NCBI GenBank assembly: GCA_965208575.1
Contig: CBDBOV010000005.1
Coordinates: 960,001 to 1,024,000, forward strand
Length of the DNA stretch: 64,000 bases
Direction: 5' to 3'
DNA from: Spirochaetia bacterium
GTDB taxonomy: Bacteria > Spirochaetota > Spirochaetia > SZUA-6 > Bin103
A program made the position numbers and the translations under genes. This document shows, one piece after another, positions 1,733 through 20,203 of this stretch; within the stretch, counting starts at the first letter, position 1, and every line of letters starts with the position of its first letter. Below the pieces are notes generated by a model, which saw nothing but the letters and a program-made list of their open reading frames with translations, searched no databases and was not told the DNA's origin.

Positions 1733-1937
1733 AATGTAGGCACATCTGTCTACGGTACGGGCGAATTTTCTTGCACTTTCGCGCTCTTTTTTTGGTGATT
1801 CCTGAATGTGTTGCGCGCCTCTTGCGGGCTGACCATGCACGGGTTACAAGAGTGCCGAGGGGCAACTTGGGGATGCAGAAGGCGAAGACAATCCACCTGC
1901 GCGCGCTCCCGTCCCGGCCACGGTTTCGGGGCACGTC

Positions 1938-5201: not shown

Positions 5202-5359
5202 CGGCCCGGGGCGCTCGCCCCGGGCGGCCGCCGGCCGGCCGCTGCGCCGGAGGCGTCGGAGGCGTCGAACCGGTGCGCGGCAAGCGTGCGGCCAGGAGTC
5301 GCCTGCCTGGGACGGGCGAGGGGTATGCGCCGGCGCGCGCGCGCCGGCTCGTCGCGGGC

Positions 5360-5662
5360 CTACCCCCCGGTCCGGGCCGGTTGCGCCGCCGAGGTGCGTC
5401 CGAAGCGCAGCGCGGCGCGTGCCCGCGCCTTGGCGGCCTCAGCCTCGCGGTCGCGCGGCGGGGCGCTGGTGACCAGCGTGTCGAGCAGGCGGCCGGTGGC
5501 GGCGGCCACGTCGTCCACGGCGCGCAGGAACGCGGCTTCATTGGCGCGCGACGGCCTGCTGGCGCCGGACACCTTGCGCACGTACTGCAGCGCGGCGGCG
5601 CGCACCTCCTCGCGCGTGGCGGGCGGCGCGAAATTGTGCAGAGGACGAATGTTGCGGCACAT
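5360..5662 (-). CDS. DUF2277-like small protein
   Basis: MCRNIRPLHNFAPPATREEVRAAALQYVRKVSG matches my recollection of this family. Confidence 0.85.
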   Translation of the reverse strand: MCRNIRPLHNFAPPATREEVRAAALQYVRKVSGASRPSRANEAAFLRAVDDVAAATGRLLDTLVTSAPPRDREAEAAKARARAALRFGRTSAAQPARTGG

Positions 5663-5845
5663 GACGGGGCGCATTGTAGGCGAGTTCCGCCGCCGCCGCG
5701 AGCCCCGCACCGTCACGGCTCGCCACGGCTGTGGCGCCGCGCACGCCATGTCGAGTTCCGGTCCCGCGGATGGTGGTGATTGCTTACTTGTGTTCCTTGC
5801 GTGCGTGCGCTAACCTGCCGCCACAATTCCGTGAGGAGGAATCGA

Positions 5846-7912
5846 GTGAAACACAGACTATTGTCGTGTGCCGGCCTGGTGGCCGGCATCATGCTGGCCG
5901 CGGTGCCGCTGTTTGCCAGCGGCGAGGAAGAGGGGGCCGCCGGCGGCGGCGCCGCCGCCATGGCCGCGGAGGGCAGCGACATCATCAAGATCGTGGGCCG
6001 CTACACGGTCCGGGAGAGCTGGCTGACGCCGCCGACGGCCTCGCAGGTGGGCATCACCACCTTCCAGGAGGCGCCGATGCTGGCCGCCATGGTGCAGGCG
6101 GGCGAGTTGCCGCCGGTGGAGGACCGGCTGCCCGACGACCCGATGGTGATGGAGCCCTATTCGGAGGTGGGCCAGTACGGCGGCGAGCTGCGCGTGGCGC
6201 GCACCGGACCCACCGACTACGGCGACATGCACCGCGGCGCCAAGACCTTCCTGTTCCGCGCCGACCCGACCCTGAACGAGATCATCCCGCACGGCGCCAA
6301 GGGCTACACCTTGTCCGACGACCGCACCGTGCTCACTTTCCACCTGCGCGAGGGGATGAAGTGGTCGGACGGCATGCCGTTCACCACCGCCGACTTCATG
6401 TGGGTATACGACAACGTGTTCCTGAACCCGGACATTCCGAGTCAGGCGATCCGCTGGTCGAACGCCGGCGAGTTGTCCAAGTGGGAGGCGATCGACGACT
6501 ACACGCTGCGCATGACCTACGCGGCGCCGCTGACGCCGACCTACCTGATTCCGCTGCTGAACTTCCACCGCACCCGGCAGGGCAACATCTACTCGCCGGT
6601 GCACTACATCGAGCAGTTCCACGCCGACTTCAACGACAAGGCGGAGGAGATGGCCCAGGCGGAGGGACACGAAAACTGGATCGCTCACCTGCGCGCCCGC
6701 ATGGAGACTGCGCCGCGGGAGGCGTACCCGCAGCCGAAGCTGGCCGCGTGGGTGCTGGAGAGCCGTGACTCGACCGGCAAGTTCAGCGTGCGCAACCCGT
6801 ACTTCTTCGCGGTCGACTCGGCCGGCAACCAGCTTCCCTACATCGACACCCTGCGGGCGATCTTCTTCGCCGACAAGCAGGTGGCGATCCTGAACATGAT
6901 GCAGGGCAAGGTGGACATCGGCGGGCGCATGATGGACCCGGCCAGTTTCGCCCTGTACAAGCAGAACGAAGAGGTGGGCGGCTACAACGTGCGCGAGTGG
7001 CAGGACACCAAGACCAGCCGCGTCATCTTCATGCCCAACATGAACAGCATGCACCCGGTCAAGGGGCCGGTCCTGTTCGACAAGCGGTTCCGTCAGGCGC
7101 TGTCGCTGGCCATCAACCGCCAGGAGATCAACGAGTTCGTGTTCCTGGGCCTGGCCACCCCGGCGCAGTACTCGGTCGATCCGGGCGCCGCGTTCTACGA
7201 CGAGGCCTGGGCCCGCTCGTACGCCGATTACGATCCGGAGGCGGCCAAGGCCAAGCTCGACGAGATGGGCATGACCGACCGCGACGGCGACGGCTGGCGC
7301 GAGGCGCCGGGCGGCGAGGAGTTCATCCTCGACCTGCGTCCCCATACCAGCTCGGTGCTCGGCACCATGGGCGACAACATCAGCGAGCTGGCCCGCACCT
7401 ACTGGGAGGAAATCGGCATCAAGATCAACTACAAGCAGATCGCCCAGGAGCTGCAGTCGCAGTTGCTGAACGCCAACGAGCTGGACATCGTGATCTTCGT
7501 CTCCGAGCACTACATGCCGAGCCGGCTGTCGTCGCCGCCGCCGTTCGGGGGTGACGTGATCATCCACTCGCTCGAGTGGCGCAACTTCTACCGCCACCAG
7601 CGCTGGCTGGACGGCGGCAAGCAGGGCGACGAGCCGCCGATGGGCACCGAGCCGCCGCCGGAGTGGAAGCAGTGGATCGACGACTGGCACGCCTGGGTCG
7701 ACGCTGCCGACGCCGAGGAATTCAACCGCATCGGCGCCAAGGTGTGGGCGTTCCAGGCCGAGCAACTGCCGGTCATCGGCACGGTGGCCAAGGCGGTGCG
7801 GCCGATCATCATCAACAGCCGCATCAACAACGTGCCGGACGTGCTGCCGTTCTCGTTCGAGAGCTTCCTCTGGGTGCAGACTCTGCCGGCCCAGTGGTAT
7901 ATCGACGAGTAG
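5846..7912 (+). CDS. ABC transporter substrate-binding protein, family 5
   Basis: GAGGAGGA RBS then GTG 5846. Signal peptide, EAPMLA...LPPVEDRLP, LREGMKWSDG and GNQLPYID. Confidence 0.95.
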   Translation: MKHRLLSCAGLVAGIMLAAVPLFASGEEEGAAGGGAAAMAAEGSDIIKIVGRYTVRESWLTPPTASQVGITTFQEAPMLAAMVQAGELPPVEDRLPDDPMVMEPYSEVGQYGGELRVARTGPTDYGDMHRGAKTFLFRADPTLNEIIPHGAKGYTLSDDRTVLTFHLREGMKWSDGMPFTTADFMWVYDNVFLNPDIPSQAIRWSNAGELSKWEAIDDYTLRMTYAAPLTPTYLIPLLNFHRTRQGNIYSPVHYIEQFHADFNDKAEEMAQAEGHENWIAHLRARMETAPREAYPQPKLAAWVLESRDSTGKFSVRNPYFFAVDSAGNQLPYIDTLRAIFFADKQVAILNMMQGKVDIGGRMMDPASFALYKQNEEVGGYNVREWQDTKTSRVIFMPNMNSMHPVKGPVLFDKRFRQALSLAINRQEINEFVFLGLATPAQYSVDPGAAFYDEAWARSYADYDPEAAKAKLDEMGMTDRDGDGWREAPGGEEFILDLRPHTSSVLGTMGDNISELARTYWEEIGIKINYKQIAQELQSQLLNANELDIVIFVSEHYMPSRLSSPPPFGGDVIIHSLEWRNFYRHQRWLDGGKQGDEPPMGTEPPPEWKQWIDDWHAWVDAADAEEFNRIGAKVWAFQAEQLPVIGTVAKAVRPIIINSRINNVPDVLPFSFESFLWVQTLPAQWYIDE

Positions 7913-7987
7913 CGACGGCGCGCTGACGCTGACGCAACCTCGGGCCGCACCTCCCCGCGCGGGGGGTGCGGCCGGTAGGGGGCCGCG

Positions 7988-8983
7988 ATGGTCGACTATC
8001 TGATTCGCCGGTTCATGAACATGCTGCTGGCACTGATCGTGATCTCGTTCCTGTCGTTCGTGATCATCCAGTTGCCGCCGGGCGACTACCTGACCAGCTA
8101 CATCACCCGCCTGCGCGCGCAGGGGGAGTTGGTGAGCGAGGAGATGGTGGCCAGCCTGACCATGCAGTACGGGCTCGACAAGTCGTTCATGGGCCAGTAC
8201 TGGAAGTGGATCACCAACTTCGTGCAGGGCGACATGGGGCAGTCGTTCCGCTACCAGACCCCGGTTAACGACCTGGTGTGGGAGCGGATCGGGCTGACGC
8301 TGGTGATCTCCACTTCCTCCCTGATGTTCATCTGGGTCGTGGCCTTCCCGGTGGGCATCTACGTGGCGGTGCGGCAGTATTCGCCGGGCGACTACGTGGC
8401 GACGTTCTTCAGCTTCATCGGGCTGGCGATTCCCAACTTCATGCTGGCGCTGGTGCTGATGTACGTCAGCTTCCGCTACTTGCGGATCGACGTGGGCGGC
8501 CTGTTCTCGCTGGAGTACCAGGACGCTCCCTGGTCGTTCGGCAAGGTGATCGACCTGATCGGCCACCTGTGGATTCCCACCATCGTGCTCGGCTCGGCCG
8601 GCACCGCGGGGCTGGTGCGCATCATGCGCGCCAACCTGCTCGACGAGTTGCGCAAGCTGTACGTGATCACGGCGCGCGCCAAGGGACTGACCGAGAACCG
8701 CATCGTGATGAAGTACCCGGTGCGGGTGGCGCTCAACCCGTTCATCAGTACGGTGGGGTGGACCCTGCCGCAGCTCATCTCGGGCGCCACCATCACCGCG
8801 GTGGTGCTCAACCTGCCGACCACCGGACCGCTGCTGATCGACGCGCTGCTGGCGCAGGACATGTTCCTGGCCGGCAGCTTCATCATGCTGCTGAGCATTC
8901 TCACCGTGATCGGCACCCTGATCTCGGACCTGCTGCTGATCGTGATCGATCCGCGCATCCGGTTCGAGAAGAAAGCGGGTTAG
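7988..8983 (+). CDS. ABC transporter permease (OppB/DppB-type)
   Basis: Hydrophobic segments, TARAKGL EAA loop, C-terminal DPRIR. Confidence 0.95.
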   Translation: MVDYLIRRFMNMLLALIVISFLSFVIIQLPPGDYLTSYITRLRAQGELVSEEMVASLTMQYGLDKSFMGQYWKWITNFVQGDMGQSFRYQTPVNDLVWERIGLTLVISTSSLMFIWVVAFPVGIYVAVRQYSPGDYVATFFSFIGLAIPNFMLALVLMYVSFRYLRIDVGGLFSLEYQDAPWSFGKVIDLIGHLWIPTIVLGSAGTAGLVRIMRANLLDELRKLYVITARAKGLTENRIVMKYPVRVALNPFISTVGWTLPQLISGATITAVVLNLPTTGPLLIDALLAQDMFLAGSFIMLLSILTVIGTLISDLLLIVIDPRIRFEKKAG

Positions 8984-8996
8984 GCGGGAGCGGGCG

Positions 8997-10187
8997 ATGG
9001 CGGAGGCGGATCGCGGGCACGGCCCCCAGGTCGAGACGCGCGAACTGGTGGTGCCGCGCGTTACGGACGCCGAGCGTGCCGCCGAGCTCGACGACCGCGA
9101 CGACCGCGAGTTCTACGCGTCGCAGTGGCAGCTCATGCGCCGCCGCTTCTTTCGCCACAAGGTGGCGGTGGGGGCGACCATCGCGCTCGCCGTGCTGTAC
9201 CTGGCGGCGTTGTTCTCGCCGTTCCTGAGCCCGCACGACCCGGTGCTGCGCAGCCTGGCCTACAAGGAGGCGCCGCCCATGGTGGTGCGCTTGTTCGAGG
9301 AGGGGCGCCTGCGCGGGCCGTTCGTGTACCCGCTGGTGAGCGAGCTGGACCGGGAGACCTACGAGAACGTCTACCAGGAGGATCGCGCGCAGCGCTACCC
9401 GGTAAAGCTGTTCGTGCGTGGCTTCGAGTACAAGCTGTTCGGGCTGTTCCCGTCCGATATGCACCTGTTCGGTACCGGCGTGGAGGGCGTGCCGGTGCAC
9501 CTGTTCGGCACCGACGCGCTCGGCCGCGACGTGTTCTCGCGCACGTTGTACGGCGCCCAGATCTCGCTGTCGGTGGGCCTGGTCGGGGTCGCGATCAGCT
9601 TCTTCCTGGGCATCCTGATCGGCGGCGTGGCCGGCTTCTTCGGCGGCACCGTGGACGAGGTGATCCAGCGCATGATCGAGATCATCATCGGCATTCCCAG
9701 CCTGCCGCTGTGGATGGGGCTGAGCGCGGCGCTTCCCACCGGCTGGCCGGTGCTCAAGATGTACTTCGCCATCACCGTGATCGTGTCGCTGATCGGCTGG
9801 ACCAGCCTGGCGCGCGTAGTGCGCGGCAAGTTCCTGTCGCTGCGCGAGGAGGACTTCGTGGTGGCCGCCAAGCTGGCCGGCCGGCGCGACGTGCCCACCA
9901 TCTTCCTGCACATGGTGCCGTCGTTCCTGAGCCACATCATTGCCTCACTGACCCTGGCGATCCCGACCATGATCCTGGCCGAGACCGCGCTCAGCTTCCT
10001 GGGCCTGGGCATGCAGCCGCCGGCGATCAGTTGGGGCGTGCTGCTCAAGGCGGCCCAGAACGTGCACTCCATCGCGCTCGCCCCGTGGCTGATGATCCCC
10101 GGCCTGTTCGTGATCATCACCGTGCTCGCCTTCAACTTCGTCGGCGACGGCCTGCGCGACGCCGCCGACCCCTACGCATCACATTGA
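8997..10187 (+). CDS. ABC transporter permease (OppC/DppC-type)
   Basis: [36 protein letters not shown]. Confidence 0.95.
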   Translation: MAEADRGHGPQVETRELVVPRVTDAERAAELDDRDDREFYASQWQLMRRRFFRHKVAVGATIALAVLYLAALFSPFLSPHDPVLRSLAYKEAPPMVVRLFEEGRLRGPFVYPLVSELDRETYENVYQEDRAQRYPVKLFVRGFEYKLFGLFPSDMHLFGTGVEGVPVHLFGTDALGRDVFSRTLYGAQISLSVGLVGVAISFFLGILIGGVAGFFGGTVDEVIQRMIEIIIGIPSLPLWMGLSAALPTGWPVLKMYFAITVIVSLIGWTSLARVVRGKFLSLREEDFVVAAKLAGRRDVPTIFLHMVPSFLSHIIASLTLAIPTMILAETALSFLGLGMQPPAISWGVLLKAAQNVHSIALAPWLMIPGLFVIITVLAFNFVGDGLRDAADPYASH

Positions 10188-10230
10188 TACGTCTCACCTC
10201 CCACTGACAGGCCTCGCATCGCATCGATGC

Positions 10231-12048
10231 CTGCCGCCGGTCGAGGAGCGGCTGCCCGACAACCCGCAGGTCATGGAGCCGTGGGAAGAGGTCGGCAGAT
10301 ACGGCGGCACGCTGCGCACAACCAGCCTGGATCCCAACTGGGACCCGATCATCCGCCACGTGGCCAACGCCGACCTGGTGGAGATGCTGGCCAGTCCCAC
10401 CGCTCACCATGCCAACCTGGTGGGCGTTGAGGTGCGTCCGGGGGTGTACGAGGACTGGTCGATCAGCGACGACGGCACCAGTTGGACCTTCACGCTGCGG
10501 CGCGGCTTGAAGTGGTCGGATGGGGAACGGGTCACCACCGAGGACGTACGCTTCTTCTTCGAGGACATCATGGAGAACGAGGACCTCTACCCCAACTACC
10601 CGGTGTGGCTGGTGCGCGGGGGGCAGCCCCCCGAGTTCGTGGCGGTGGACGAGCAAACGTTCCGCCTCGACTTCGCGGAGCCCTACGGCCTGCTGGAGGT
10701 TATTCTTCATACCCACGGCAGCGGCGGCGTGGCACGGACCATGAAGCCGGCCCACTACCTGAAGCAGTTCCATCGCGACTACAACGACATGGACAGGATT
10801 CTTCCGGTCATGAAGGAGAAGGGCTTCGGCGAAGACGAGTGGCCGCGCTTCATGCTGGAAACCGGGGCCGGCCTGCTGAGCTGGGACGGCACCTACATGA
10901 TGGCCGTGATGGAGCCCCTGGAGTTCCCGGTAGTGAACCCCTGGCAGGTGCAGGAGGTGATCGGCCCCGGCGAATACCTGTTCGTGCGCAATCCCTACTA
11001 CTTCAAGATCGACACCGCCGGCAATCAGCTTCCCTACATCGACTACATCCGCAAGTCCACCGCCGAGGATCCGGAGGTGCTGTCGCTGAAGATTCTGACC
11101 GGTGAGCTGGACGTCGAGGGAGGTTACTTCGTCAAGCTGAGCGACTATCCGCTGTACGTGGAAAACCAGGACAAGGGCAACTTCGACATTCTGCTGACCA
11201 AGGACTGGCTCGACCACCCGTTGATCTTCTTCTTCAACAACGCGCCGGCGGACCCGGTGCTCAGGGAGCTGGTGCAGGACCCGCGTCTCGGCCAGGCGAT
11301 GTCGCTGGCGCTCGACCGGCAGGACTTCATCGAGTCTCTGTTCCTGGGCTTCGGCCGTCCCGCGCAGGTGTCGCCGGTGCGCGGCAACCCGATGTTCAGA
11401 CAGGAGCTGGAAGATTCCTACGCCGCCTACGATCCCGACCAGGCCAATGCCCTGCTCGATGCGATGGGCCTGGAGTGGGATGCCAACAACGAGTTCCGCC
11501 TGCGTCCCGACGGCGAGCGGTTTACCATTCCGCTGACCTACTACGAGGTGTTCCCGTCGGTCACGCCGGGTTCCGAGCTGGCGTCGCAGTACTGGAAGGA
11601 TATCGGTATCCACGTGCCTACCAAGGCGATGGACGGCGGCGCCTGGTGGACGGCGTTCCAGGCCAATGAGCACGTGCTCACTACCTGGGGCCTGGGCAGC
11701 GCCAGTGTCGTGCCGTCCTGGTTCTTCCAGGGCTTCAGCACCACCACACCCACCTGGTGGCGCTGGTACCAGACCGGCGGCGCCGAGGGTGTCGAGCCGA
11801 CCGCAGCGGGCAAGCGGGCGTACGAATTGCGCGACATCATCCAGTCCACCCCGTCCGCGGAGGAGCGCCTGGCCGCAAGCCGCGAGGTGTTCGAGATTCA
11901 GGCCGAGCACCTGTGGGTGATCGGCGTGGCGGTGGACGTTCCTTCGCCGCTGGTGCACTCCCGGCGGATCGGCAACATCGGCATCGCCAAGGACTTCTAC
12001 AACATCACCGTGCTCGACGGCGGCGAGCAATGGTTCTTTAAGAACTGA
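10231..12048 (+). pseudogene. 5'-truncated family-5 substrate-binding protein (no signal peptide)
   Basis: Homology starts abruptly at LPPVEERLPDNP (10231), only 44 bp after the previous stop. The leader and EAPML region present in the paralogues at 5846 and 49355 are missing. Confidence 0.8.
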
Positions 12049-12083
12049 TGGTTCTTCAAGAACTGATGGTTCTTTAGAACTGA
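12030..12083 (+). repeat. Triplicated 18-bp unit spanning the binding-protein stop codon
   Basis: ATGGTTCTTTAAGAACTG / ATGGTTCTTCAAGAACTG / ATGGTTCTTT-AGAACTG. Confidence 0.9.
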
Positions 12084-12166
12084 GTCGCCGAGACGGTTGA
12101 TTCGTACCGCAGAACGTGAGATGCCCGTCGGCGCCGTGACAACGGCTGCCGGCGGGCTCTGATCCT

Positions 12167-13159
12167 GTGCTGTACTACCTCCTGCGCCGCTCGCTCTACA
12201 TGCTGCTGTTGCTGGTGGTGCTGTCGATGGCGGGCTTCGCCATCATCCAGCTCCCGCCCGGCGACTACCTGAACAGCTATATCCAGGCGCTGGCGATGCG
12301 CGGCGCCGCCCCGGACGAAGCGGAGCTGGCCGCGCTCAAGCGCCAGTACGGCCTCGACCTGCCGCTGCACCGCCAATACCTGAAGTGGGCCGGGCGCGCG
12401 CTGGCCGGTGATTTCGGTCGCTCCATGGACTGGCGCAAGCCGGTCTCGGAGCTGATCGCCGACCGCATGCTGCTGACGGTGATCATGAACGCCGCGGCGA
12501 TGGTGTTCATCTACGTGGTGGCGATTCCGATCGGGATTTTCGCCGCCACCCACCAATACTCGGTCGGCGACCACGCGCTGACGGTGGTCAGCCTGACCGG
12601 GCTGGCGACGCCGCAGTTCCTGCTGGCGCTGGTGCTGATGGTGTTCATGGTGCGCAACTTCGGCGCCAGCGTCGGCGGCCTGTTCTCGCCCGAGTACGTC
12701 GACGCCGCCTGGAGCGTGGGCCGGGTGATCGACCTGCTGGCGCACCTGCCGGTGCCGGTGGTCATCATCGGCCTGTCCGGGACCGCGGCGCTGATCCGGG
12801 TGATGCGCAGCGGGGTGCTCGACGAGTTGAAGAAGCAGTACGTGGTGACCGCCCGCGCCAAGGGCGCCACCGAACGCGCCCTGCTGTTCAAGTACCCGGT
12901 GCGGGTGGCGATCAACCCGATCATCAGCACGGTCGGCTGGATGCTGCCGGCCACCATCTCGGGCGGCACCATCACGGCGGTGGTGCTCAGCCTGCCCACG
13001 GTGGGCCCGATGCTGCTGCGCGCCCTGCGCAACCAGGACATGTTCCTGGGCGGCACCATCGTCATGCTGCTCGGCTTCCTGACCGTGATCGGGACCTTCG
13101 TCTCCGACATGCTGCTGATGTGGATCGACCCGCGCATCCGTTACGAACGGAGCCGTTGA
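12167..13159 (+). CDS. ABC transporter permease (OppB/DppB-type)
   Basis: TARAKGA loop and DPRIRY. Paralogue of 7988..8983. Confidence 0.95.
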   Translation: MLYYLLRRSLYMLLLLVVLSMAGFAIIQLPPGDYLNSYIQALAMRGAAPDEAELAALKRQYGLDLPLHRQYLKWAGRALAGDFGRSMDWRKPVSELIADRMLLTVIMNAAAMVFIYVVAIPIGIFAATHQYSVGDHALTVVSLTGLATPQFLLALVLMVFMVRNFGASVGGLFSPEYVDAAWSVGRVIDLLAHLPVPVVIIGLSGTAALIRVMRSGVLDELKKQYVVTARAKGATERALLFKYPVRVAINPIISTVGWMLPATISGGTITAVVLSLPTVGPMLLRALRNQDMFLGGTIVMLLGFLTVIGTFVSDMLLMWIDPRIRYERSR

Positions 13160-13162
13160 ACG

Positions 13163-14305
13163 GTGGCGGAGCCGCAGGTGTCGAGTGCTGTCGCGACCGC
13201 CGCCGAGCAGGCGGAAGAGCGTCTCTTTCTCGCTTCGCAGTGGCGCCTCATGTGGCGTCGCCTGGGCCGCCACCGGGTGGCGCTGGCCGGCGGCGTGGTA
13301 CTGCTGCTGTTCTACCTCACCATGTGCCTGGGGGCGGAGTTCGTCGCCCCCTACACCAAGGACACCCGCTTCAAGGCATTCTCGTTCGCCCCGCCGGCGC
13401 GGATTCGCGTGGTAGACGCCGACGGGCGCCTGCGGCTGCCGTTCGTCTACGGCCTGGAGTCGGGACGCGATCCGGTTTCGTTCCGCAAGGTGTACACCGA
13501 GGACGTGAGCGTCCGTTACCCGCTGCGCCTGTTCGCGCGCGGCGAGCCGTACCTGCTGTGGGGGCGATTCCCGGCCGACCGCCACCTGATCGGCGTGGAC
13601 GAGCCGGGCCTGCTGCTGCTGTTCGGCAGCGACGAGCTGGGCCGCGACCTGTTTTCGCGCACCCTGTACGGGGGCCGCATCTCGCTGTCGATCGGCCTGG
13701 TCGGGGTGGCGGTGAGCTTCGTGCTCGGCTGCATCCTGGGCGGGCTGTCGGGGTTCTACGGCGGCGGCATCGACAATGCCATACAGCGCGTCATCGAGTT
13801 CCTGCTGTCGATACCCACCATCCCGCTGTGGATGGCGCTGGCGGCGGCGGTGCCGGTCGACTGGCCGCCGCTGCGGGTGTACTTCGGCATCACCATCATC
13901 CTGTCGATCATCGGCTGGACGGCGCTGGCGCGGGTGGTGCGCGGCAAGCTGATCAGCACCCGCGAGGAGGACTTCGTGGTGGCGGCACAGATCGCCGGCT
14001 CGACCGAGCGCAAGATCATCGTACGCCACCTGCTGCCGTCGTTCCTGAGCTACCTGATCGTCGACCTGACGCTGTCGATCCCGCGCATGATCCTGGGCGA
14101 GACGGCGCTCAGCTTCCTGGGCCTGGGGCTACGCCCGCCGGTGGTGAGCTGGGGAGTGCTGCTGAACCAGGCGCAGAACGTCAAGGCGGTGGCCCTGCAC
14201 CCGTGGATGCTGATCCCGGCGGTGTTCGTGATCGTGTCGGTGCTGGCCTTCAACCTGCTCGGCGACGGCCTGCGCGACGCCGCCGACCCCTACGCCTCGC
14301 ATTGA
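13163..14305 (+). CDS. ABC transporter permease (OppC/DppC-type)
   Basis: [36 protein letters not shown]. Confidence 0.95.
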   Translation: MAEPQVSSAVATAAEQAEERLFLASQWRLMWRRLGRHRVALAGGVVLLLFYLTMCLGAEFVAPYTKDTRFKAFSFAPPARIRVVDADGRLRLPFVYGLESGRDPVSFRKVYTEDVSVRYPLRLFARGEPYLLWGRFPADRHLIGVDEPGLLLLFGSDELGRDLFSRTLYGGRISLSIGLVGVAVSFVLGCILGGLSGFYGGGIDNAIQRVIEFLLSIPTIPLWMALAAAVPVDWPPLRVYFGITIILSIIGWTALARVVRGKLISTREEDFVVAAQIAGSTERKIIVRHLLPSFLSYLIVDLTLSIPRMILGETALSFLGLGLRPPVVSWGVLLNQAQNVKAVALHPWMLIPAVFVIVSVLAFNLLGDGLRDAADPYASH

Positions 14306-14310
14306 TGCGT
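14200..14310 (+). repeat. Left copy of an exact 111-bp direct repeat (permease 3' end)
   Basis: Identical base for base to 20093..20203 (CCCGTGGATGCTG...GCCTCGCATTGATGCGT). Confidence 0.97.
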
Positions 14311-14554
14311 TGCGTATGCATGACCGCTCACTTCCCTCTCGACAGAACACTACCGAAGCCCAAAGTGGCGCCGGTCCGGGTTGCGCATCCACTTGTTCCG
14401 CGGCCACAGGGACATGCCTCCGCCATGACGACCATCGGCTACCCGAGCTTCACCCGGTGCGCAACCCTTTTGACCTGATCCACGCCAAACAAGTACTCTC
14501 GTGTGCATCTCCTATTCTGAGGTCCCAATATCCCGGTTAGAGGACGAACACCCC

Positions 14555-17500
14555 ATGGCGACTATGCAAGCGGTTTTTGAGCGACTGATAGACTCCGGTG
14601 ATCTGCACTGCATGGATCGAGTCGACTTGCCTGCTCGTGCCCAGCGGCTCGCTACGATACCAGAGGGATTCCGCACCGGCGCGCCGGGCCGGTGGTTGAT
14701 GAACGATCCCAAGCTCGAAGGGAGACTGTGGCTCCACCAAGCCAAGGCAATGAGAGCTGCTGCACAAGGCAAGAATGTTATCGTTTCGACCGGAACAGCA
14801 TCCGGAAAATCGTTAGTCTTTCAATCTATTGCGTACCGAACCATGGAGGTCGATGACGAGGCCGTCGTCATGGTTTTCTACCCACTCAAAGCGCTGGCGA
14901 ATGATCAGTGGGAGTCATGGCGAGACAGTGCTGAAGCGGCAGGTTTCAGCAGAGCATTAGTCGACCGAATAGATGGATCAGTACCGCGCCATGAGCGGGC
15001 CCAGAAACTTCGTGATGCCCGAATAGTACTGATGACTCCAGACGTTTGTCATGCTTGGTTGATGCAGGAGATATCGAATCCTTACCACGCCGAATTTATT
15101 TCTCGGTTGGCGTTGATAATCATCGATGAGGCGCATACACTCGAGGGGGTATTCGGGAGTAATTTTGCATATTTGTTCCGCCGAGTATGTGCAGTCAGAT
15201 ATCGTGTTCTCCAATCCAATAAGAGGCAAACCAAGTTGCAGGTAGTTGCCGCCAGTGCAACGATAGATGCTCCCGATAATCATCTCGGTAGTCTCACGGG
15301 AATGCAGTACGTAACGGTTGCTGAATCCGACAATGGGTCACCACGAAGTGCGCAGGCTATCATACACATCCAGGAGAAGCCATCCGATAAGGAGATCGGC
15401 GCTATTCTTCGACGATTGGTGGATGAATCTGATGACGGTAGTTTCATAGTGTTCAGGGACTCAAGGATGGGAGCTGAGCGCATTGCCGCGCAGGTGGACC
15501 GTCCCAAGCGCATCAATCCATACAGAAGCGGTTACGAGCCTAAAGACCGTACCGCAATTGAAGATGCTCTCCGGAAGGGCTCCCTCAGGGGAGTCGTCTC
15601 CACGTCTGCGCTCGAACTAGGGATCGACATTCCTCACTTTTCCGTTGGCCTGAACATCGGTGTACCGCACTCGCGCAAGTCGTTCCGTCAGCGTCTCGGG
15701 CGTGTCGGACGACTTGGTCCCGGCGTGTTCGGCATCGTCGCCCCATCCTTTGCGTTCAATCGCTTCGGGATGACACTGATGGACTATTATCGCGAGTCGG
15801 TGGAGCCGTCTTACCTGTACCTGAATAACCGCTTCATGCAGTATGCACATGCTCGCTGCCTCGCCGAAGAACTGGAGATGCTCGGTATGGGCGGGCGCAA
15901 GAGGGTTCCGGGTAGGGTGTCTTGGCCGGATGGATTCAGCGAGAAACTCGATTTTGCATATGCCGGAAGCCCTGCCGCGCGGCCCCGCGAGTACGATCAG
16001 ATATTCAACATCGGAGGCGATCAGCCTCATCTCAACTATCCGTTGCGAGGGATAGCGGAGGAGACGTTCACCGTCGGTAGAGGCGGACCGGCTGGAAGCA
16101 TCGTTCGTTTTGAGCAGCTGAGCCTGCAACAAGCTGTTCGCGAAGCTTTTCCGGGGGCGATCTATCTTAGTCGGGCTCGTGGGTGGAGGGTGCAGGAGTG
16201 GAGAAACACGGCGTTTGAGCGGACGATCCGCGTGGCTCCGTCGTCTTCTCTCCGCTCACCGAAGCCACTTATAAGGACCTACGTGAACTTGAGTCTGGAC
16301 GTAGAGAGCGTGGTGGAGGGACACCTGCGATCGAGCAGCCAAGGAGTCCTTGCGGAGTGTCAACTGCAGATCACCGAGCGGGTCGAAGGCTACCGGCAGG
16401 GTGACGAGCGATTCTTTTACAAGGAACTCCGCCAAACGAAACGTGGAATGACTCCGAAGACACGTGACTTCCGCACCACTGGCATCGTGTTGCGAATTCA
16501 AGACCCGTGGTTTGCGGAAAAGGGCGTCAAGGAAGCCGTCGCGGAGGCTCTCCGTGAACTCATTCTAAGTGAGTACAGCATATCGCCCAATGATGTCGGC
16601 TCTGCGGCCACCAATGTCTCCGAGGTACGTAACGGGAGGCGCCAACGGCTGACCGACACTGTCGTCCTCTTTGACTCGACCCACGGCAGTCTGCGATTGA
16701 CCGAGCCAGCGTATACTGATTTGGATCATCTGTTGCAACGGCTCAGCCGTTCGGTTGAGATGACTGCGCCAAACGAGCACCTTCTTTCGTCGAATACTAT
16801 CCAGCGTCTACGCGAGTGGTTCAGTCGACTCGAAAGGAGCGGGTCCTCGGATATCGCCGGCCTCGGAACACCGGATGAGGCGGTTCCGGAAGGCTGGTTG
16901 CATGTGTTTGACGCCGGAAGCCTGGTCGCATACCGAGATTCGAAGCAAGTACTTCGTGACATCACGATTACCGGTCGACAGTTGATGCAAATGGGTGACG
17001 GATTACACTTGGTGTACACCTATCAAGGGGACGGCTTTACTGCCTCGATCCCGGCTGATCGAGTCGAAGCCGTTGGCGAGAACTGGGACATGGTGTATTG
17101 GAATCCGAAGACCAACGAGTGCCGTGAGTCATTCGACGAGACTCCGGCGCCGACCATCCGAGACGACTTGGGCACTAGTCCCTACATCGTTGGGAATCCC
17201 GTGGACCAGGAAGACATGTTCTTCGGCCGCGCGGTTGTCATGGACCAGATCAAAAGGCAACTCGGCGGCGGCAACCACGCCAATGTGATCTTGCTTGAGG
17301 GCAACCGCCGAACCGGCAAGACGTCGATCCTGCGGCAACTGGACAAAACGGAACTTCTCTCCGGTTGGGTGCCAGTGTACTGTTCGCTTCAGGACGTAGA
17401 TAGTATCGCCACTGCTGACATTTTCAGGTTGTTGATGCTAAAAACTGGTTGGACGCTCGCCGACGCCGGCATTGATACTTGGATACCCGGTGTGACGCGT

Positions 17501-18391
17501 CCTGACTCCCAACAGCCCCACAAACTATCATTCCGCTCGGCGCTTGGTCGCGCTCTTGCCGAGGGGCATCCATTCGAGACACTCGAGCTCTATCTTTCCG
17601 CAGCGATCGAGGCAGCCAAGCCACTCCGGATCCTGCTCATGCTGGACGAATTCGACAAGCTCCAGGAGGGTATCGACCGCGGTATAACCAGCGCCCAAGT
17701 TCCTGAGAACATCCGTCACCTGCTGCAGCACCAATCAGGTCTCGGTGCGATCATCACCGGATCCCGTCGTCTAAAGAGGCTGCGAAAGGAATACTGGTCG
17801 GCGTTGTTCGGGTTCGGCTATCGCATCGGGGTGAGCGCGCTGCCGCGCGACGAAGCGGAGCGGCTAGTGACTGAGCCGGTTGCAGGTCTTCTCGACTACG
17901 ATCCGCGAGCATGTGGTCGGGTGGTGGACGTGTGTGCTTGTCATCCGTTCTTGGTCCAGTCGCTTTGTAGCCGGATCTTCGACCGGGCAGCGACCGAAGG
18001 AAAACGAACGATCACGGTCGACATGGTCGAACGTGCGTCAAGTGAAATGGTGCGGGACAACGAGCACTTCCACACCTTATGGGGCTACGCCGGCAGCGAG
18101 CGCCGGAGACTGATCCTGGCGATCTGCTCCGCGTTGGGGAACGGGACCCAAGCCGTAGGCCTTGCGCAGCTAAGCACCAAACTCGATGAGAGTGGAGTTT
18201 CGATTCATAGCGACGATGAGTTGACAGAAGATGTCTCCGAACTCCGCGAGCTTGAGATGATCGAATTCGATGAGTCATCGAATGGCGGCACCTATCGGCT
18301 ATCCGTACCTCTGATGGCCACTTGGATCGAAATGAACGTCGACTTCCAAGATTTGTTGGCACGTGCCGTCTGGGAGGGTAAGTCCGCGTGA
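14555..18391 (+). CDS. SF2 DEAH helicase (YprA/MrfA/Hrq1-like) fused to a C-terminal STAND-like AAA ATPase
   Basis: Helicase motifs: LWLHQ, STGTASGKS, IIDEAH, ASAT, STSALELGIDI, QRLGRVGR. Second NTPase: PYIVGNPV..FFGR, GNRRTGKTS, LMLDEFD, followed by a wHTH-like tail. AGAGGA RBS before ATG 14555. Confidence 0.9.
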   Translation: MATMQAVFERLIDSGDLHCMDRVDLPARAQRLATIPEGFRTGAPGRWLMNDPKLEGRLWLHQAKAMRAAAQGKNVIVSTGTASGKSLVFQSIAYRTMEVDDEAVVMVFYPLKALANDQWESWRDSAEAAGFSRALVDRIDGSVPRHERAQKLRDARIVLMTPDVCHAWLMQEISNPYHAEFISRLALIIIDEAHTLEGVFGSNFAYLFRRVCAVRYRVLQSNKRQTKLQVVAASATIDAPDNHLGSLTGMQYVTVAESDNGSPRSAQAIIHIQEKPSDKEIGAILRRLVDESDDGSFIVFRDSRMGAERIAAQVDRPKRINPYRSGYEPKDRTAIEDALRKGSLRGVVSTSALELGIDIPHFSVGLNIGVPHSRKSFRQRLGRVGRLGPGVFGIVAPSFAFNRFGMTLMDYYRESVEPSYLYLNNRFMQYAHARCLAEELEMLGMGGRKRVPGRVSWPDGFSEKLDFAYAGSPAARPREYDQIFNIGGDQPHLNYPLRGIAEETFTVGRGGPAGSIVRFEQLSLQQAVREAFPGAIYLSRARGWRVQEWRNTAFERTIRVAPSSSLRSPKPLIRTYVNLSLDVESVVEGHLRSSSQGVLAECQLQITERVEGYRQGDERFFYKELRQTKRGMTPKTRDFRTTGIVLRIQDPWFAEKGVKEAVAEALRELILSEYSISPNDVGSAATNVSEVRNGRRQRLTDTVVLFDSTHGSLRLTEPAYTDLDHLLQRLSRSVEMTAPNEHLLSSNTIQRLREWFSRLERSGSSDIAGLGTPDEAVPEGWLHVFDAGSLVAYRDSKQVLRDITITGRQLMQMGDGLHLVYTYQGDGFTASIPADRVEAVGENWDMVYWNPKTNECRESFDETPAPTIRDDLGTSPYIVGNPVDQEDMFFGRAVVMDQIKRQLGGGNHANVILLEGNRRTGKTSILRQLDKTELLSGWVPVYCSLQDVDSIATADIFRLLMLKTGWTLADAGIDTWIPGVTRPDSQQPHKLSFRSALGRALAEGHPFETLELYLSAAIEAAKPLRILLMLDEFDKLQEGIDRGITSAQVPENIRHLLQHQSGLGAIITGSRRLKRLRKEYWSALFGFGYRIGVSALPRDEAERLVTEPVAGLLDYDPRACGRVVDVCACHPFLVQSLCSRIFDRAATEGKRTITVDMVERASSEMVRDNEHFHTLWGYAGSERRRLILAICSALGNGTQAVGLAQLSTKLDESGVSIHSDDELTEDVSELRELEMIEFDESSNGGTYRLSVPLMATWIEMNVDFQDLLARAVWEGKSA

Positions 18392-19992
18392 CGCCCAATC
18401 CCTATCAGGTCCTTGGACCTTCGGTCCCGGCCATGATTGGGCGCGCTGAACTCATGCGCAGGTTCGACAACCACTTGTTGAAGCCGACGCCCGATCACGT
18501 TTCGGTTGTCGGCCCTGGCCATTACGGTAAGTCGGTGCTGCTGAAACACCTCGCTAGCGTCTACGGCGGCGGACGGGGCGGCTATCTTGCAGCTGCGTAC
18601 GTAGACCTTCGGCACGGGACTCCCTCGTCGGACCAAGATTTCATGAGCCGGTTCGCGGACGAGATCAAGACGACGTTACAGTCGGCCCGTCCGGAGCTTG
18701 ACGAGCTGATCGATGTCGACGATGAGAACATACACGAGATGCTGGGGCTGGTGTTCGAGGATATCGAGAAGCACGGTACACGCATCCTCGTCGTACTCGA
18801 CGGCTTCGATTACGCGCTCGCGGGTACCGGACTGACACGCAACCTGTGGGATCAGCTCCGCGTGCTCGCGCAGATACCAAGTCTACGACTGGTTACCGGG
18901 AGTCGGCGTCCTCTGCGCGAGCTGTGCCGGACCGAGGAATCTCGTACCTCCGACTTCTGGGAAATCTTCTACGACACGCCACTGCGCGTCACGGCTCTCA
19001 AAGACGCTGACGTAACGGAGTTCCTGAGGCCGCTCCGTGAATCGGGTTGTGAGTTCGACGGGCCGGCCCTTAAGGAAATCTCGAACTGGACAGGGGGTGT
19101 GCCGCTCTTGCTGTGTGCACTTCTGCAGTGGCTGTGGACGGAACACCGAGGCGCGCGTCTTGCCAAGTCGGAGATCGACCGAGCCGCGGATAAGTTGCTG
19201 GCCGAGCGGCGTCAACTCCTAGACGCGCTCTGGGATGATTGCAACGGCGAATTGCGGGCCGACTTGGGCGTGCTGGGCGATCAGGACATATGGTTGACCG
19301 ATCTTTCCGACCGGCGACGACGCGCGGTGGAGGAGCGAGGCTTTGGTCGCGTATCGGGAAGCCGGCTGCGCAGTTCCTGCCGTCTCATGCAGCGCTATGC
19401 TCGGGCGCAGGCGCCCGCTATCGCCGACCTGACACGTCTACTGGGCACCTCCGTTGGTTTCGCGACTCACGTTCGATCGCTGTTGGATCTGCGCCTTGCA
19501 CAGGTATCGGTCGACGGCGCGGATGAGGACCTGCGTGCATTCGTCATGAACGCCATCCGCGACCTCTCCCCGGTGCCCGGACGCGCACTCGTGTGGATCA
19601 GGAGTATCGCGAACCGGGCGCTGAAGCTCGTCTGGGAGGCCGAGCTTCCGCCTGATAGGACGCTGCCGGTGGAGTGGTGCGATGATTGGGACGGGGTGGG
19701 CGTGAACTATCCGGTTGCCCATGGGAAGCTGCCCCGCTCACCCGGGGCGCAGTGCAACATACTGCGCCTGGCGACTGGCACAGAGCGGACGGCGCGCTGC
19801 ACCAAGTACGTCACCAAGACGACCTGCCTGCTTATCGACTACCTACAGTCAGTTGGCGACTTCGGGCAACATCGTGACGACTTCCCGGACGTCACGGTCA
19901 ACGTCGGATTCGCAACTGCCGCCGTACTCGCCGCCATATCGCTGACAGAGTGTCTGACCGCAGATCTCCTAAGGCTGCCGAGTGCCGAATGA
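18388..19992 (+). CDS. STAND-like P-loop ATPase with degenerate Walker B and an unknown C-terminal domain
   Basis: NPY..MIGR, GPGHYGKS (Walker A), VVLDGFD (Walker B lacking Glu), WTGGVP. GTGA overlap with the helicase stop. Confidence 0.82.
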   Translation: MTPNPYQVLGPSVPAMIGRAELMRRFDNHLLKPTPDHVSVVGPGHYGKSVLLKHLASVYGGGRGGYLAAAYVDLRHGTPSSDQDFMSRFADEIKTTLQSARPELDELIDVDDENIHEMLGLVFEDIEKHGTRILVVLDGFDYALAGTGLTRNLWDQLRVLAQIPSLRLVTGSRRPLRELCRTEESRTSDFWEIFYDTPLRVTALKDADVTEFLRPLRESGCEFDGPALKEISNWTGGVPLLLCALLQWLWTEHRGARLAKSEIDRAADKLLAERRQLLDALWDDCNGELRADLGVLGDQDIWLTDLSDRRRRAVEERGFGRVSGSRLRSSCRLMQRYARAQAPAIADLTRLLGTSVGFATHVRSLLDLRLAQVSVDGADEDLRAFVMNAIRDLSPVPGRALVWIRSIANRALKLVWEAELPPDRTLPVEWCDDWDGVGVNYPVAHGKLPRSPGAQCNILRLATGTERTARCTKYVTKTTCLLIDYLQSVGDFGQHRDDFPDVTVNVGFATAAVLAAISLTECLTADLLRLPSAE

Positions 19993-20006
19993 CTTGAATG
20001 CCCAGT

Positions 20007-20203
20007 CGCTCAGCTTCCCGGGCCTGGCGCTGCGGCCGCCCGTGGTGAACAAGGGTTGCTGACGAGCCGCAAACGTCGATACGGTGGCCTCGCCCGTGGA
20101 TGCTGATCCCGGCGGTGTTCGTGATCGTGTCGGTGCTGGCCTTCAACCTGCTCGGCGACGGCCTGCGCGACGCCGCCGACCCCTACGCCTCGCATTGATG
20201 CGT
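20007..20203 (+). repeat. Orphan permease 3'-end copy (right direct repeat)
   Basis: 20007..20092 is a degenerate, indel-bearing copy of 14106..14199. 20093..20203 is exact. Confidence 0.95.

What the first reader, a model, noticed from the sequence alone, without database searches (positions are those of the whole stretch)
14555..19992. Candidate new defence system: helicase-STAND ATPase fusion plus a coupled pseudo-STAND partner
Seen in sequence: a ~1280-aa protein with a complete SF2 DEAH helicase followed by a second intact P-loop domain (GNRRTGKTS / LDEFD). It is translationally coupled (GTGA) to a 534-aa protein of similar ATPase type whose Walker B lacks the catalytic Glu (LDGFD). The post-helicase region resembles DUF1998 (FDSTHGS) but shows no Cys cluster. 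Established knowledge: YprA/DUF1998-type helicases occur in DISARM, Druantia and related defence systems, and STAND ATPases act as sensors in Avs/NLR-like immunity. Inference: this is a two-component system in which an active/inactive STAND pair gates a helicase effector. I do not recognise this architecture as a named system. It is the only cargo of a low-GC islet.
Basis: partly seen in the sequence, partly recalled or inferred. Interest (0 to 1): 0.82.

Follow-up and report, generated by a model that had tools for sequence, protein, structure and literature searches.

The report
Helicase fused to paired STAND ATPases
A horizontally acquired two-gene cassette encodes a repair-type helicase fused to a switch-like ATPase plus a second, related ATPase, and it is a rare variant of a widespread, apparently unnamed gene pair that usually sits with restriction-modification genes, so it is most likely a candidate antiviral defence system.

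Summary
Gene A (14555-18391, 1278 aa) and gene B (18388-19992, 534 aa) overlap by GTGA and are the only genes of a 5.8-kb low-GC insert bounded by a 111-nt perfect direct repeat of the 3' end of an ABC permease gene. A is an end-to-end fusion. A complete ~862-aa YprA/MrfA-type DEAH helicase, with no Cys cluster, is joined to a ~408-aa STAND-class ATPase module. B is a paralogous NACHT-like ATPase with an unassigned C-terminal half. The fusion is not a one-off: there are at least 7 clusters, one origin, and dN/dS near 0.1. The new point is that the ATPase pair is the core of a large family, 1028 representative clusters. That family normally carries an HsdM-like methylase with a degenerate catalytic motif (APPW) plus a specificity domain. 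It often follows a CARF-sigma54 (RtcR-like) activator, a sigma54 promoter and type I R-M genes. No PADLOC model matches the pair. B's LDGFD motif is invariant and NACHT-typical, so "pseudo-STAND" is not supported. Defence is inferred, not shown.

The parts
13163..14305 (+). Peptide-type ABC transporter permease gene. Its 3' end is the insertion target (context, not part of the system).
   Evidence: The translation ends ...[19 protein letters not shown]. Neighbouring genes are BPD_transp_1, SBP_bac_5 and OppC_N.
14200..14310 (.). Left copy of the 111-nt perfect direct repeat (last 35 codons and stop of the permease gene, plus 5 nt).
   Evidence: the repeat finder family D1, 100% identity to 20093-20203; alignment.
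14311..20092 (+). Inserted low-GC islet (about 5.8 kb) that holds only genes A and B.
   Evidence: GC 0.583 against 0.66-0.68 in the flanks. Bounded by the repeats. Homology to the L003 cassette covers only 14556-19969.
14555..18391 (+). Gene A: helicase-ATPase fusion protein, 1278 aa.
   Evidence: dN/dS against L003 is 0.096.
14555..17140 (+). Helicase part of A (862 aa): an SF2 DEAH core, then a YprA/MrfA-like region with a Cys-less DUF1998/MZB-like stretch (FDSTHGS 16670-16690), then a family-specific tail of about 100 aa.
   Evidence: DEAD 79-256 and Helicase_C 302-406. TIGR03817 over 75-683. PDB 6znp YprA, E 3e-35. Full-length match to stand-alone helicases of about 865 aa. The Atlas model of homologue P0341 aligns with MZB-bearing helicases at TM 0.75 over residues 1-755.
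17165..18388 (+). STAND-class ATPase module of A (408 aa). Walker A GNRRTGKTS 17300-17326, Walker B LDEFD 17642-17656, TGSRR 17756-17770.
   Evidence: AAA_22 and AAA_16, with weak nSTAND3/6 and ATPase_2. 52-74% identical to the same module in methylase fusions. 1028 representative clusters at E<=1e-30.
18388..19992 (+). Gene B: NACHT-like STAND ATPase (about aa 1-300) with an unassigned C-terminal half (about aa 300-534). Walker A GPGHYGKS 18511-18534, Walker B LDGFD 18796-18810, TGSRR 18895-18909. Conserved hydrophobic segment at aa 502-523 (19891-19956).
   Evidence: hhalign to the A module: 95.6% probability, E 1.3e-8. dN/dS 0.168.
18388..18391 (+). GTGA overlap between the stop of A and the start of B.
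   Evidence: Sequence read.
20007..20203 (.). Right copy of the permease 3' end. 20007-20055 is degenerate (84%, with indels and an in-frame stop). 20093-20203 is the perfect 111-nt repeat.

Best explanation
This is an intact, horizontally acquired two-gene cassette.

Protein A joins a complete YprA/MrfA-type DEAH helicase to a STAND-class NTPase module. Protein B is a paralogous NACHT-like NTPase with an unknown C-terminal domain.

The two NTPase modules are the conserved core of a widespread, apparently unnamed system. The 'head' fused to the first module is exchangeable. It is usually a catalytically degenerate HsdM-like methylase plus one specificity (TRD) domain. Here, rarely, it is a helicase.

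Most likely mechanism, all of it inferred: the two NTPases form an NTP-dependent hetero-oligomeric switch. B's C-terminal half receives the trigger. Assembly then licenses the nucleic-acid-engaging head, here a 3'-5' translocating helicase, to act on invading DNA. That would make this an anti-phage or anti-mobile-element defence.

Shown: the anatomy, the conservation, the paralogy, the single origin of the helicase form, purifying selection, the insertion structure, and the company kept by relatives. Inferred: binding of A to B, the trigger, the target, and the defence function itself.
For: **Conserved pair**
- 38 of 45 genome loci found with B have an A-type ATPase module directly upstream.
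- The gene overlaps are conserved.
- The ATPase-module tree and the B tree give the same order for helicase-linked rows.

**Paralogy**
- hhalign of A3 against A1: 95.6% probability, E 1.3e-8, 275 columns.

**Fusion is old and selected**
- 7 of the 120 listed A-type proteins carry the helicase. This count includes the window's own truncated call and one partial protein.
- They form one clade with SH-aLRT 100.
- dN/dS is 0.09-0.17.
- The helicase motifs are invariant in 15 of 15 sequences.

**Clean gene fusion**
- Stand-alone helicases of about 865 aa, 50-79% identical, end where the module begins.

**Defence company of relatives**
- RtcR-like CARF-AAA-HTH activator: PADLOC PDLC01995, E 9e-194.
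- That activator lies upstream in 18 of the 31 loci that have a full-length A.
- A canonical sigma54 promoter sits at the junction in 11 of 17 loci scanned.
- The HsdR cluster is in 14 loci and the HsdS cluster in 13 of 45 loci.
- An HsdR-fusion-B operon sits on an Acinetobacter ursingii plasmid beside WYL and MPN genes.
- RtcR-led defence superoperons are described in PMC11090510, section 11 (read).

**Mobility and patchiness**
- B occurs in 11 of 23 same-family genomes, one of them only as fragments.
- The helicase occurs in 2 of 61 relatives.
- The insert is bounded by repeats.
- In a sister species the orthologous site carries a DNA methylase, a HEAT protein and a GmrSD-type gene.
Against: - No experiment bears on this, and no structure or complex prediction could be run.
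- No nuclease or other known effector domain was detected in A or B.
- By score the helicase is nearest the repair-type YprA/MrfA group, not DrmA or DruE.
- The immediate neighbours in the window (ABC transporter, Big_7 protein, phosphatase) and in L003 (metabolic genes) are not defence genes.
- The helicase form lacks the RtcR-like gene and the sigma54 promoter.
- The only stand-alone helicase locus examined has PLD-like and SNF2-like neighbours, but on the opposite strand. That is one locus only.
- No STAND-type sensor repeats were found.
- Nothing was found in phage records or viral contigs. This neither helps nor hurts much.
Confidence: 0.6

Rival explanations
1. One reading: B is a catalytically dead pseudo-STAND that pairs with the active module of A to gate the helicase.
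For: B has G where A has the Walker B Glu (LDGFD against LDEFD). Active/inactive ATPase pairs are common in AAA+ and STAND assemblies (established knowledge).
Against: D138, G139 and D141 of LDGFD are invariant in 26 of 26 members, as are GK48S and the G171-S172-R173 of TGSRR (T170 is nearly invariant). That pattern is typical of a working site. 24 of 26 members match NACHT, whose usual Walker B is DGxDE with the acidic residue two positions on (recalled). dN/dS is 0.17.
Confidence: 0.2
2. A DNA-repair or housekeeping helicase of the MrfA/YprA 'repair' branch, whose activity is regulated by two accessory ATPases. Not an immune system.
For: The best named relatives are YprA/MrfA (6znp, E 3e-35) and TIGR03817 (E 2e-58). 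The YprA survey splits the family into repair and defence branches (10.1101/2025.09.15.676423, section 5, read). There are no defence genes next to the cassette in the window or in L003.
Against: - The distribution is patchy and islet-borne: 2 of 61 relatives.
- The GC is foreign and the insert is bounded by repeats.
- The same ATPase pair elsewhere is tied to type I R-M genes and RtcR-like activators.
- The Zn-binding Cys cluster of MrfA is missing.
- TIGR03817 scores 198 bits against a cut-off of 874.
Confidence: 0.12
3. A function of a mobile element itself, such as target selection, maintenance or competition, using TniB/AAA_22-like ATPases and a helicase.
For: There are weak TniB and AAA_22 matches: TniB in 18 of 26 B members at E<=5, best 4.7e-4. 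The cassette lies in an insertion with att-like repeats. A YhgA-like transposase sits next to B in L008.
Against: There is no integrase, transposase or replication gene inside the 5.8-kb insert. The pair is found in many different contexts without shared mobility genes. There are no matches in phage or viral collections and only 3 plasmid records.
Confidence: 0.08
4. A decaying remnant, or a chance deletion that joined two unrelated genes, with no function.
For: The usual regulator (RtcR-like gene and sigma54 promoter) is missing. Decayed copies of the family exist, for example B internally deleted in G001/L045.
Against: Both frames are intact. dN/dS is 0.09-0.17 over all parts. The fusion is shared by several diverged clusters (67-92% helicase identity) that form one clade. 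All catalytic motifs are kept.
Confidence: 0.03

Closest known systems
Methylase-head form of the same ATPase pair (unnamed; e.g. L001, L024, and the Acinetobacter ursingii plasmid NZ_MH220285.1 operon HsdR / 'N-6 DNA methylase' 1323 aa / 'ATP-binding protein' 520 aa)
   Same: The first ATPase module is homologous (43-74% identity) and so is B (33-70%). Gene order and start/stop overlap are the same.
   Different: The head is an HsdM-like domain with motif IV changed to (A/V/T)PPW, plus one TRD, instead of a helicase. It is usually preceded by an RtcR-like activator, a sigma54 promoter and/or hsdR-hsdM-hsdS. None of these is present in the window.
YprA/MrfA family helicases (B. subtilis MrfA, PDB 6znp; also the helicases of DISARM, Druantia, Dpd and ARMADA)
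   Same: SF2 DEAH core and the post-helicase region. Sequence match to 6znp. The Atlas model of a 50%-identical homologue superposes on MZB-bearing helicases.
   Different: There is no Zn-binding Cys cluster and no Pfam MZB hit. There is an extra C-terminal domain of about 100 aa and a fused ATPase module. No DrmB/C, DruH or BrxHII/PglX partners are present. In the main text of the YprA survey preprint my term search found no 'ATPase', 'AAA' or 'P-loop', and 'STAND' only within the word 'standard'; I also read its outline and sections 5 and 9. Its supplements were not seen.
STAND/NLR-like antiviral ATPases (Avs, bNACHT; nSTAND1/2 conflict systems)
   Same: P-loop NTPase of NACHT/NB-ARC/nSTAND type with an N-terminal functional head. 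Paired nSTAND2 genes, one of them fused to a cyclase, exist in genomes of the same order.
   Different: The work is split over two proteins. No TPR, WD40 or LRR sensor repeats were found, and no PADLOC STAND model matched above noise. The head is a helicase rather than a nuclease, protease or TIR domain.
Shango, BREX BrxH and Dpd DpdF (the best PADLOC hits)
   Same: The helicase core matches the SngC, BrxHI/II and DpdF models (E 2e-31 to 5e-23).
   Different: The matches cover only the RecA-like core (residues about 75-410). No partner genes of those systems are present.

Membership tests
YprA/MrfA (DUF1998) helicase family | SF2 DEAH helicase core with motifs I, II, III and VI | tested here: met
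   GTASGKS, DEAH, SAT and QRLGRVGR are present and invariant in 15 of 15 aligned relatives. Pfam DEAD and Helicase_C score above their cut-offs.
YprA/MrfA (DUF1998) helicase family | Sequence similarity to YprA beyond the core | tested here: met
   6znp YprA, E 3e-35. TIGR03817 aligned over residues 75-683, but at 198 bits against a cut-off of 874, so it is not an equivalog.
YprA/MrfA (DUF1998) helicase family | C-terminal MZB/DUF1998 domain with four Zn-binding Cys | tested here: not met
   No PF09369 hit. The only Cys residues in 440-880 are at 453, 620 and 874. C453 and C620 are the only invariant Cys in the post-core region of the family alignment, so there is no Cys cluster. The fold is probably retained, judged from a homologue's Atlas model (a lead only).
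STAND NTPases (NACHT / NB-ARC / nSTAND) | P-loop NTPase with Walker A, Walker B and a conserved Arg-bearing motif | tested here: met
   Both modules carry them, and they are invariant in their families.
STAND NTPases (NACHT / NB-ARC / nSTAND) | Match to curated STAND models at their cut-offs | tested here: inconclusive
   For the window proteins NACHT scores 17.6 bits (cut-off 26.7), NB-ARC 14.3 and nSTAND3 17.3, all below cut-off. Across the B family NACHT is matched by 24 of 26 members (best E 2.9e-7) and nSTAND2 by 17 of 26.
STAND NTPases (NACHT / NB-ARC / nSTAND) | NBD-helical-winged-helix core followed by sensor repeats (TPR/WD40/LRR) | tested here: not met
   No repeat family was found in A or B. 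The domain order could not be tested, because structure prediction was off.
DISARM | DrmA helicase with DrmB (DUF1998), plus DrmC/DrmD/DrmE and a methylase | tested here: not met
   DrmA models match only weakly (E about 4e-11, helicase core). No partner genes lie in the 5.8-kb insert or its flanks.
Druantia | Large DruE helicase with DruA-D or DruH partners | tested here: not met
   DruE models match at E 1e-14 or weaker and only in short stretches. No partner genes are present.
Avs / AVAST | One polypeptide: effector, STAND NTPase and a TPR-like sensor | tested here: not met
   No Avs model is among the 25 PADLOC hits shown for A (71 families matched in all, so 46 were not seen), nor among the hits shown for B. 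The architecture is split into two proteins without repeats.
MADS (methylation-associated defence system) | mad1-mad8 gene set | tested here: not met
   The only hit is mad8, E 0.007, over 60 residues of B. mad2 and mad5 match only the methylase/TRD head of relatives, and below the generic type I models.
Shango | SngA (TerB), SngB ATPase and SngC helicase | tested here: not met
   SngC matches the helicase core only (model positions 24-368 of 720). No SngA or SngB is present.

The most novel reading that the evidence does not exclude
The paired STAND-like ATPases define a large, so far unnamed family of defence systems with exchangeable DNA-engaging heads.

In the common form a pseudo-methyltransferase with a TRD reads DNA sequence or modification state. 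The operon is switched on by a CARF-sigma54 (RtcR-like) activator that senses infection-derived RNA ends or nucleotides.

In the window's form a YprA-type helicase has replaced the reader head and the inducible control. This gives a compact, constitutive two-gene system that works without methylation and without a recognisable nuclease.
Probability: 0.4. Interest if true: 0.8.

Novelty: new variant of a known kind. Interest (0 to 1): 0.62.

Why it matters
If the pair is a defence system, it adds a family of at least about a thousand 50%-identity clusters. That family links three themes that are usually treated apart: NLR-like STAND switches, type I R-M parts reused as sensors, and transcriptional induction by a CARF-sigma54 activator.

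The helicase variant is a natural head-swap experiment. It shows which part is the conserved engine (the two ATPases) and which part is exchangeable.

It would also extend the catalogue of YprA-family helicase systems with a form that the main text of a 52,000-protein survey does not mention. Almost all members come from uncultured bacteria, which may explain why the family has no name.

Tried and rejected
No fold search was therefore possible.
- Complex prediction for the A module with B was not available.
- The Atlas could not read new sequences. I used the stored homologues P0190 and P0341 instead, as the message suggested.

**Searches that led nowhere**
- Profile searches of PDB sequences with A1 and A3 gave nothing useful.
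- The one metagenome scan picked generic helicase motifs and returned only YprA-like helicases about 30% identical. None of these 80 loci has the ATPase pair.
- Looking for more stand-alone helicase loci found only G061 again: 1 of 121 genomes and 1 of 401 genomes. In the latter only 2 candidates per genome were scored. The context of the stand-alone helicase therefore rests on a single locus.
- No match in phage records or viral contigs.
- No Rfam family in the islet: one hit at E 0.09, below the gathering score.
- No convincing sigma70 or sigma54 promoter before A.

**Literature**
- Searches found no paper naming the methylase-ATPase plus ATPase pair or a YprA-STAND fusion. The library is partial, and supplementary tables of the CoCoNuT and YprA papers could not be seen.

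**Ideas rejected or left open**
- A HEPN reading of B's C-terminal half is not adopted. It rests on one Atlas cluster with 11% HEPN_Swt1. No Rx4-6H motif is conserved and no Pfam hit appears in 26 members.
- A transmembrane reading of B residues 502-523 (Kyte-Doolittle 1.78) is left open.
- DefenseFinder and HHpred could not be run.

Full report
**What is there.** Two long ORFs on the + strand fill the reported interval: 14501..18391 and 18388..19992 (translations). The first really starts at ATG 14555. Nucleotide homology with the orthologous cassette of a same-genus genome (L003) begins at 14556. The L003 protein begins opposite residue 19. An AGAGGA box precedes the ATG. Gene A therefore encodes 1278 aa and gene B 534 aa. 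The stop of A and the GTG start of B overlap as GTGA, with GGAGGG about 11 nt upstream. The public gene calls for this very sequence are truncated to 974 and 449 aa (P0003, P0123). Those calls remove the helicase motifs I-II from A and the P-loop from B. Full-length homologues and dN/dS show that the long forms are the real ones.

**Domains.** In A, Pfam finds DEAD (79-256), Helicase_C (302-406) and AAA_22/AAA_16 (907-1093). In B it finds AAA_22, ATPase_2 and AAA_16, with weak NACHT and NB-ARC.
- The helicase is of the YprA/MrfA kind. TIGR03817 aligns over residues 75-683 (E 2e-58, but 198 bits against a cut-off of 874). The best solved relative is B. subtilis YprA/MrfA, 6znp (E 3e-35).
- The Zn-binding DUF1998/MZB domain is not detected. 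The post-helicase region has only three scattered Cys.
- The Atlas model of a 50%-identical stand-alone homologue superposes on MZB-bearing helicases over residues 1-755 (TM 0.75, a lead only). This suggests the fold is kept and that the last ~100 residues are a family-specific addition.
- PADLOC-DB v2 matches only the helicase core (SngC, BrxH, DpdF, weaker DrmA and DruE). It matches nothing meaningful in B (mad8, E 0.007).

**The fusion is a clean joining of two complete units.**
- Residues 19-880 match, end to end, a family of stand-alone helicases of about 865 aa (50-79% identity). These end exactly where the ATPase module of A begins (alignment A2).
- The last ~408 residues (from DLGTSPYIVGNPVD) are 52-74% identical to the C-terminal module of a very large set of proteins whose N-terminal part is an N6 DNA methylase.
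- An exhaustive profile search finds 1028 representative clusters (50% identity) at E<=1e-30. Of the best 150, 124 have a methylase-like N-terminus, 1 has the helicase, 22 are short (fragments or stand-alone) and 3 are something else.

**The partner is conserved with the module, not with the helicase.**
- B has more than 600 relatives at 60-80% identity over its full length.
- In 38 of the 45 genome loci retrieved with B, an A-type module lies directly upstream, usually overlapping B's start. Only L003 has the helicase head.
- Profile-profile comparison shows the two ATPase modules are paralogues (95.6% probability, E 1.3e-8, 275 columns, 23% identity). They share the N-terminal PY..G motif, Walker A, Walker B, TGSRR and the following helical motif.

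**The helicase form has one origin and is under selection.**
- In a tree of ATPase modules, the 7 helicase-linked rows form one clade (SH-aLRT 100). The tree used those 7 rows plus the first 60 of 113 other rows in BLAST-hit order, not a random sample. By midpoint rooting the clade sits among methylase-linked lineages.
- The B tree groups the helicase-linked B proteins in the same internal order (SH-aLRT 89). Partner type for three of those rows was inferred only from equal contig lengths.
- Between the window and L003, dN/dS is 0.096 for A (0.089 for the helicase part, 0.108 for the module) and 0.168 for B. dS is near saturation.

**'Pseudo-STAND' is not supported.** In alignment A1 (26 sequences) the Walker A GK48S, the Walker B residues D138, G139 and D141, and the G171-S172-R173 of TGSRR are invariant. 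24 of 26 members match Pfam NACHT, 18 match NB-ARC and 17 match nSTAND2. From my own knowledge, the usual NACHT Walker B is hhhhDGxDE, with the catalytic acid two positions after the Gly. An invariant LDGFD is therefore what a working NACHT-like site looks like. Whether B hydrolyses NTP remains untested.

**What the relatives keep as company.** Clustering ORFs across the 45 loci shows two recurrent operons:
- (i) activator, then methylase-ATPase, then B.
- (ii) activator, then hsdR, hsdM, hsdS, then methylase-ATPase, then B.

Details of these operons:
- The activator is a full-length match to the PADLOC model RtcR_PspF2 (CARF-AAA-HTH; E 9e-194), with Pfam Sigma54_activat. It occurs in 22 of 45 loci, and upstream on the same strand in 18 of the 31 loci that have a full-length A.
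- A canonical sigma54 promoter (TGGCAC-N5-TTGCT) lies right at the end of the activator gene in 11 of the 17 such loci scanned. About 0.08 chance matches are expected per locus (my own arithmetic).
- The hsdR, hsdM and hsdS genes are ordinary type I genes.
- An Acinetobacter ursingii plasmid carries hsdR, then the fusion (annotated N-6 DNA methylase, 1323 aa), then an 'ATP-binding protein' (520 aa), with 8-nt overlaps, near WYL and MPN genes.
- RtcR-homologue-led defence superoperons that include type I R-M and YprA/DUF1998 modules are described for CoCoNuT loci (PMC11090510, section 11, read). That text does not name this pair.

**The methylase head looks like a reader, not an enzyme.** Motif I (DPCFGxG) is kept in 97 of 102 long fusions. 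The catalytic motif IV (D/N/S)PP(Y/F/W) is absent in 97 of 102. It is replaced mostly by APPW (64 with A, 14 with V, 7 with T and 4 with S before PPW/F; 13 without the motif). The stand-alone HsdM next door in L024 has NPPY at the aligned position. That this abolishes methyl transfer is inferred from what is known of the motif.

**The window's copy is stripped down.** The host genome has no CARF-bearing RtcR homologue, since all 7 matches start at query residue 169 or later, in the sigma54 AAA domain. There is no sigma54 promoter near the cassette and only one copy of B. The helicase was found in 2 of 61 related genomes, and B in 11 of 23 same-family genomes, one of them only as fragments.

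**The islet.**
- The last ~205 nt of the upstream ABC permease gene are duplicated on the far side of the cassette. The duplication is 111 nt perfect, preceded by a copy that is 84% identical with indels and a stop.
- The insert is thus 14311-20092, GC 0.583 against 0.66-0.68, and holds only A and B.
- This resembles integration by recombination into the 3' end of a conserved gene, but no integrase is present.
- In sister species G006 the same permease gene is followed by a 3.8-kb insert with a DNA methylase and a HEAT-repeat protein. That insert is bounded by a 1.18-kb repeat of the permease gene and followed by GmrSD-type, IrrE-like and ClpP-like genes.
- In G001 a different 5.2-kb stretch occupies the site before synteny resumes at window 29015.
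- The site is therefore a variable hotspot that carries defence-type cargo in a relative.

**Mechanism.** I commit to a defence-type NTP-dependent switch, with confidence 0.6. The two paralogous STAND-class modules assemble. B's unassigned C-terminal half (about 235 aa, strongly conserved, with no family in 26 of 26 members) receives the trigger. The head on A then engages nucleic acid. With a helicase head and no recognisable nuclease, the effect would come from translocation or unwinding on invader DNA, or from recruiting a host nuclease. Every step after 'two conserved, coupled, paralogous ATPases with an exchangeable head' is inference. Evidence against, and the rival explanations, are listed in their own sections.

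**Comparison and novelty.** The system fails the membership tests for DISARM, Druantia, Avs, MADS and Shango (see Membership tests). It belongs to the YprA helicase family only in the broad sense, because the Cys cluster is missing. It belongs to the STAND class by motifs and weak profile matches. In the main text of the YprA-family survey (10.1101/2025.09.15.676423) my term search found no ATPase, AAA or P-loop term, and 'STAND' only within 'standard'; I also read its outline and sections 5 and 9. My seven literature searches found no name for the pair. I rate it a new variant of a known kind: STAND-based conflict systems with modular heads. The undescribed parent family is the more interesting result.

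**Limits.** Structure prediction, fold search, complex prediction and the earlier-findings tool were all unavailable. DefenseFinder and HHpred could not be run, and paper supplements were closed.

Noticed in passing
window 14106-14310 and 20007-20203: The 3' end of the ABC permease gene is duplicated around the islet: 111 nt perfect, plus a degenerate 84% stretch with indels. It looks like an att-type integration scar, but there is no integrase.
   Followed up: yes
L157 (G006:C152) 3596-7377 and 8830-13597: In a same-genus genome the orthologous site holds a different insert, with an N6_N4 DNA methylase and a HEAT-repeat protein. It is bounded by a 1.18-kb repeat of the permease gene and followed by GmrSD_N, IrrE-like M78 and ClpP-like genes. 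This looks like a defence hotspot.
   Followed up: partly
L001, L024 and proteins P0010-P0122: The methylase head of the common form keeps motif I, but motif IV is (A/V/T)PPW instead of (N/D/S)PP(Y/F/W) in 97 of 102 proteins. This is a probable pseudo-methyltransferase used as a DNA reader.
   Followed up: partly
L001:1723, L002:6188, L009:6012, L012:6167, L016:6190, L019:6184, L021:5848, L024:880, L025:751, L028:5896, L036:885: A canonical sigma54 promoter (TGGCAC-N5-TTGCT) sits exactly at the end of the RtcR-like CARF activator gene, ahead of the methylase-ATPase or hsdR gene.
   Followed up: partly
window 13400-14310; genomes G000-G010: This genus carries more than 40 paralogues per genome of this peptide-ABC permease gene, at 75-80% nucleotide identity. 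That is an unusually large expansion and could promote recombination between copies.
   Followed up: no
L059 (G028:C9) 3182-8865: Genomes of the same order carry an operon with an ATPase_2-PEGA protein, an unknown 305-aa protein, an nSTAND2 ATPase (333 aa) and a guanylate/adenylate cyclase-nSTAND2 fusion (587 aa). This is another paired-STAND arrangement with a head on one partner.
   Followed up: partly
L045 / L148 (G001:C1 about 4343141-4343373): A same-genus genome has a methylase-type A gene whose partner B is internally deleted. Only about 45 N-terminal and about 37 C-terminal residues remain.
   Followed up: partly
window 14555-19992 (proteins P0003, P0123): The public gene calls for both genes are truncated (974 and 449 aa). 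They cut off helicase motifs I-II and B's P-loop, so automatic annotation would miss the architecture.
   Followed up: yes
window 19891-19956 (B residues 502-523): A conserved hydrophobic segment lies near B's C-terminus (Kyte-Doolittle mean 1.78 over 19 residues). It could be a buried helix or a tail anchor; this is undecided.
   Followed up: no
L002:13717-14787 (- strand), cluster c13 in 7 loci: An RNA ligase gene (Pfam RNA_ligase plus the PHA02142 OB-fold domain) lies a few kb downstream of the RtcR-type operons in several related genomes. This fits an RNA-damage theme, but the loci are close kin.
   Followed up: no
L066 (G061:C1) 1067-7155 and 8523-11324: The only stand-alone helicase locus examined has a PLD-like 943-aa gene and an SNF2-like 1086-aa gene on the opposite strand, next to the helicase.
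   Followed up: partly
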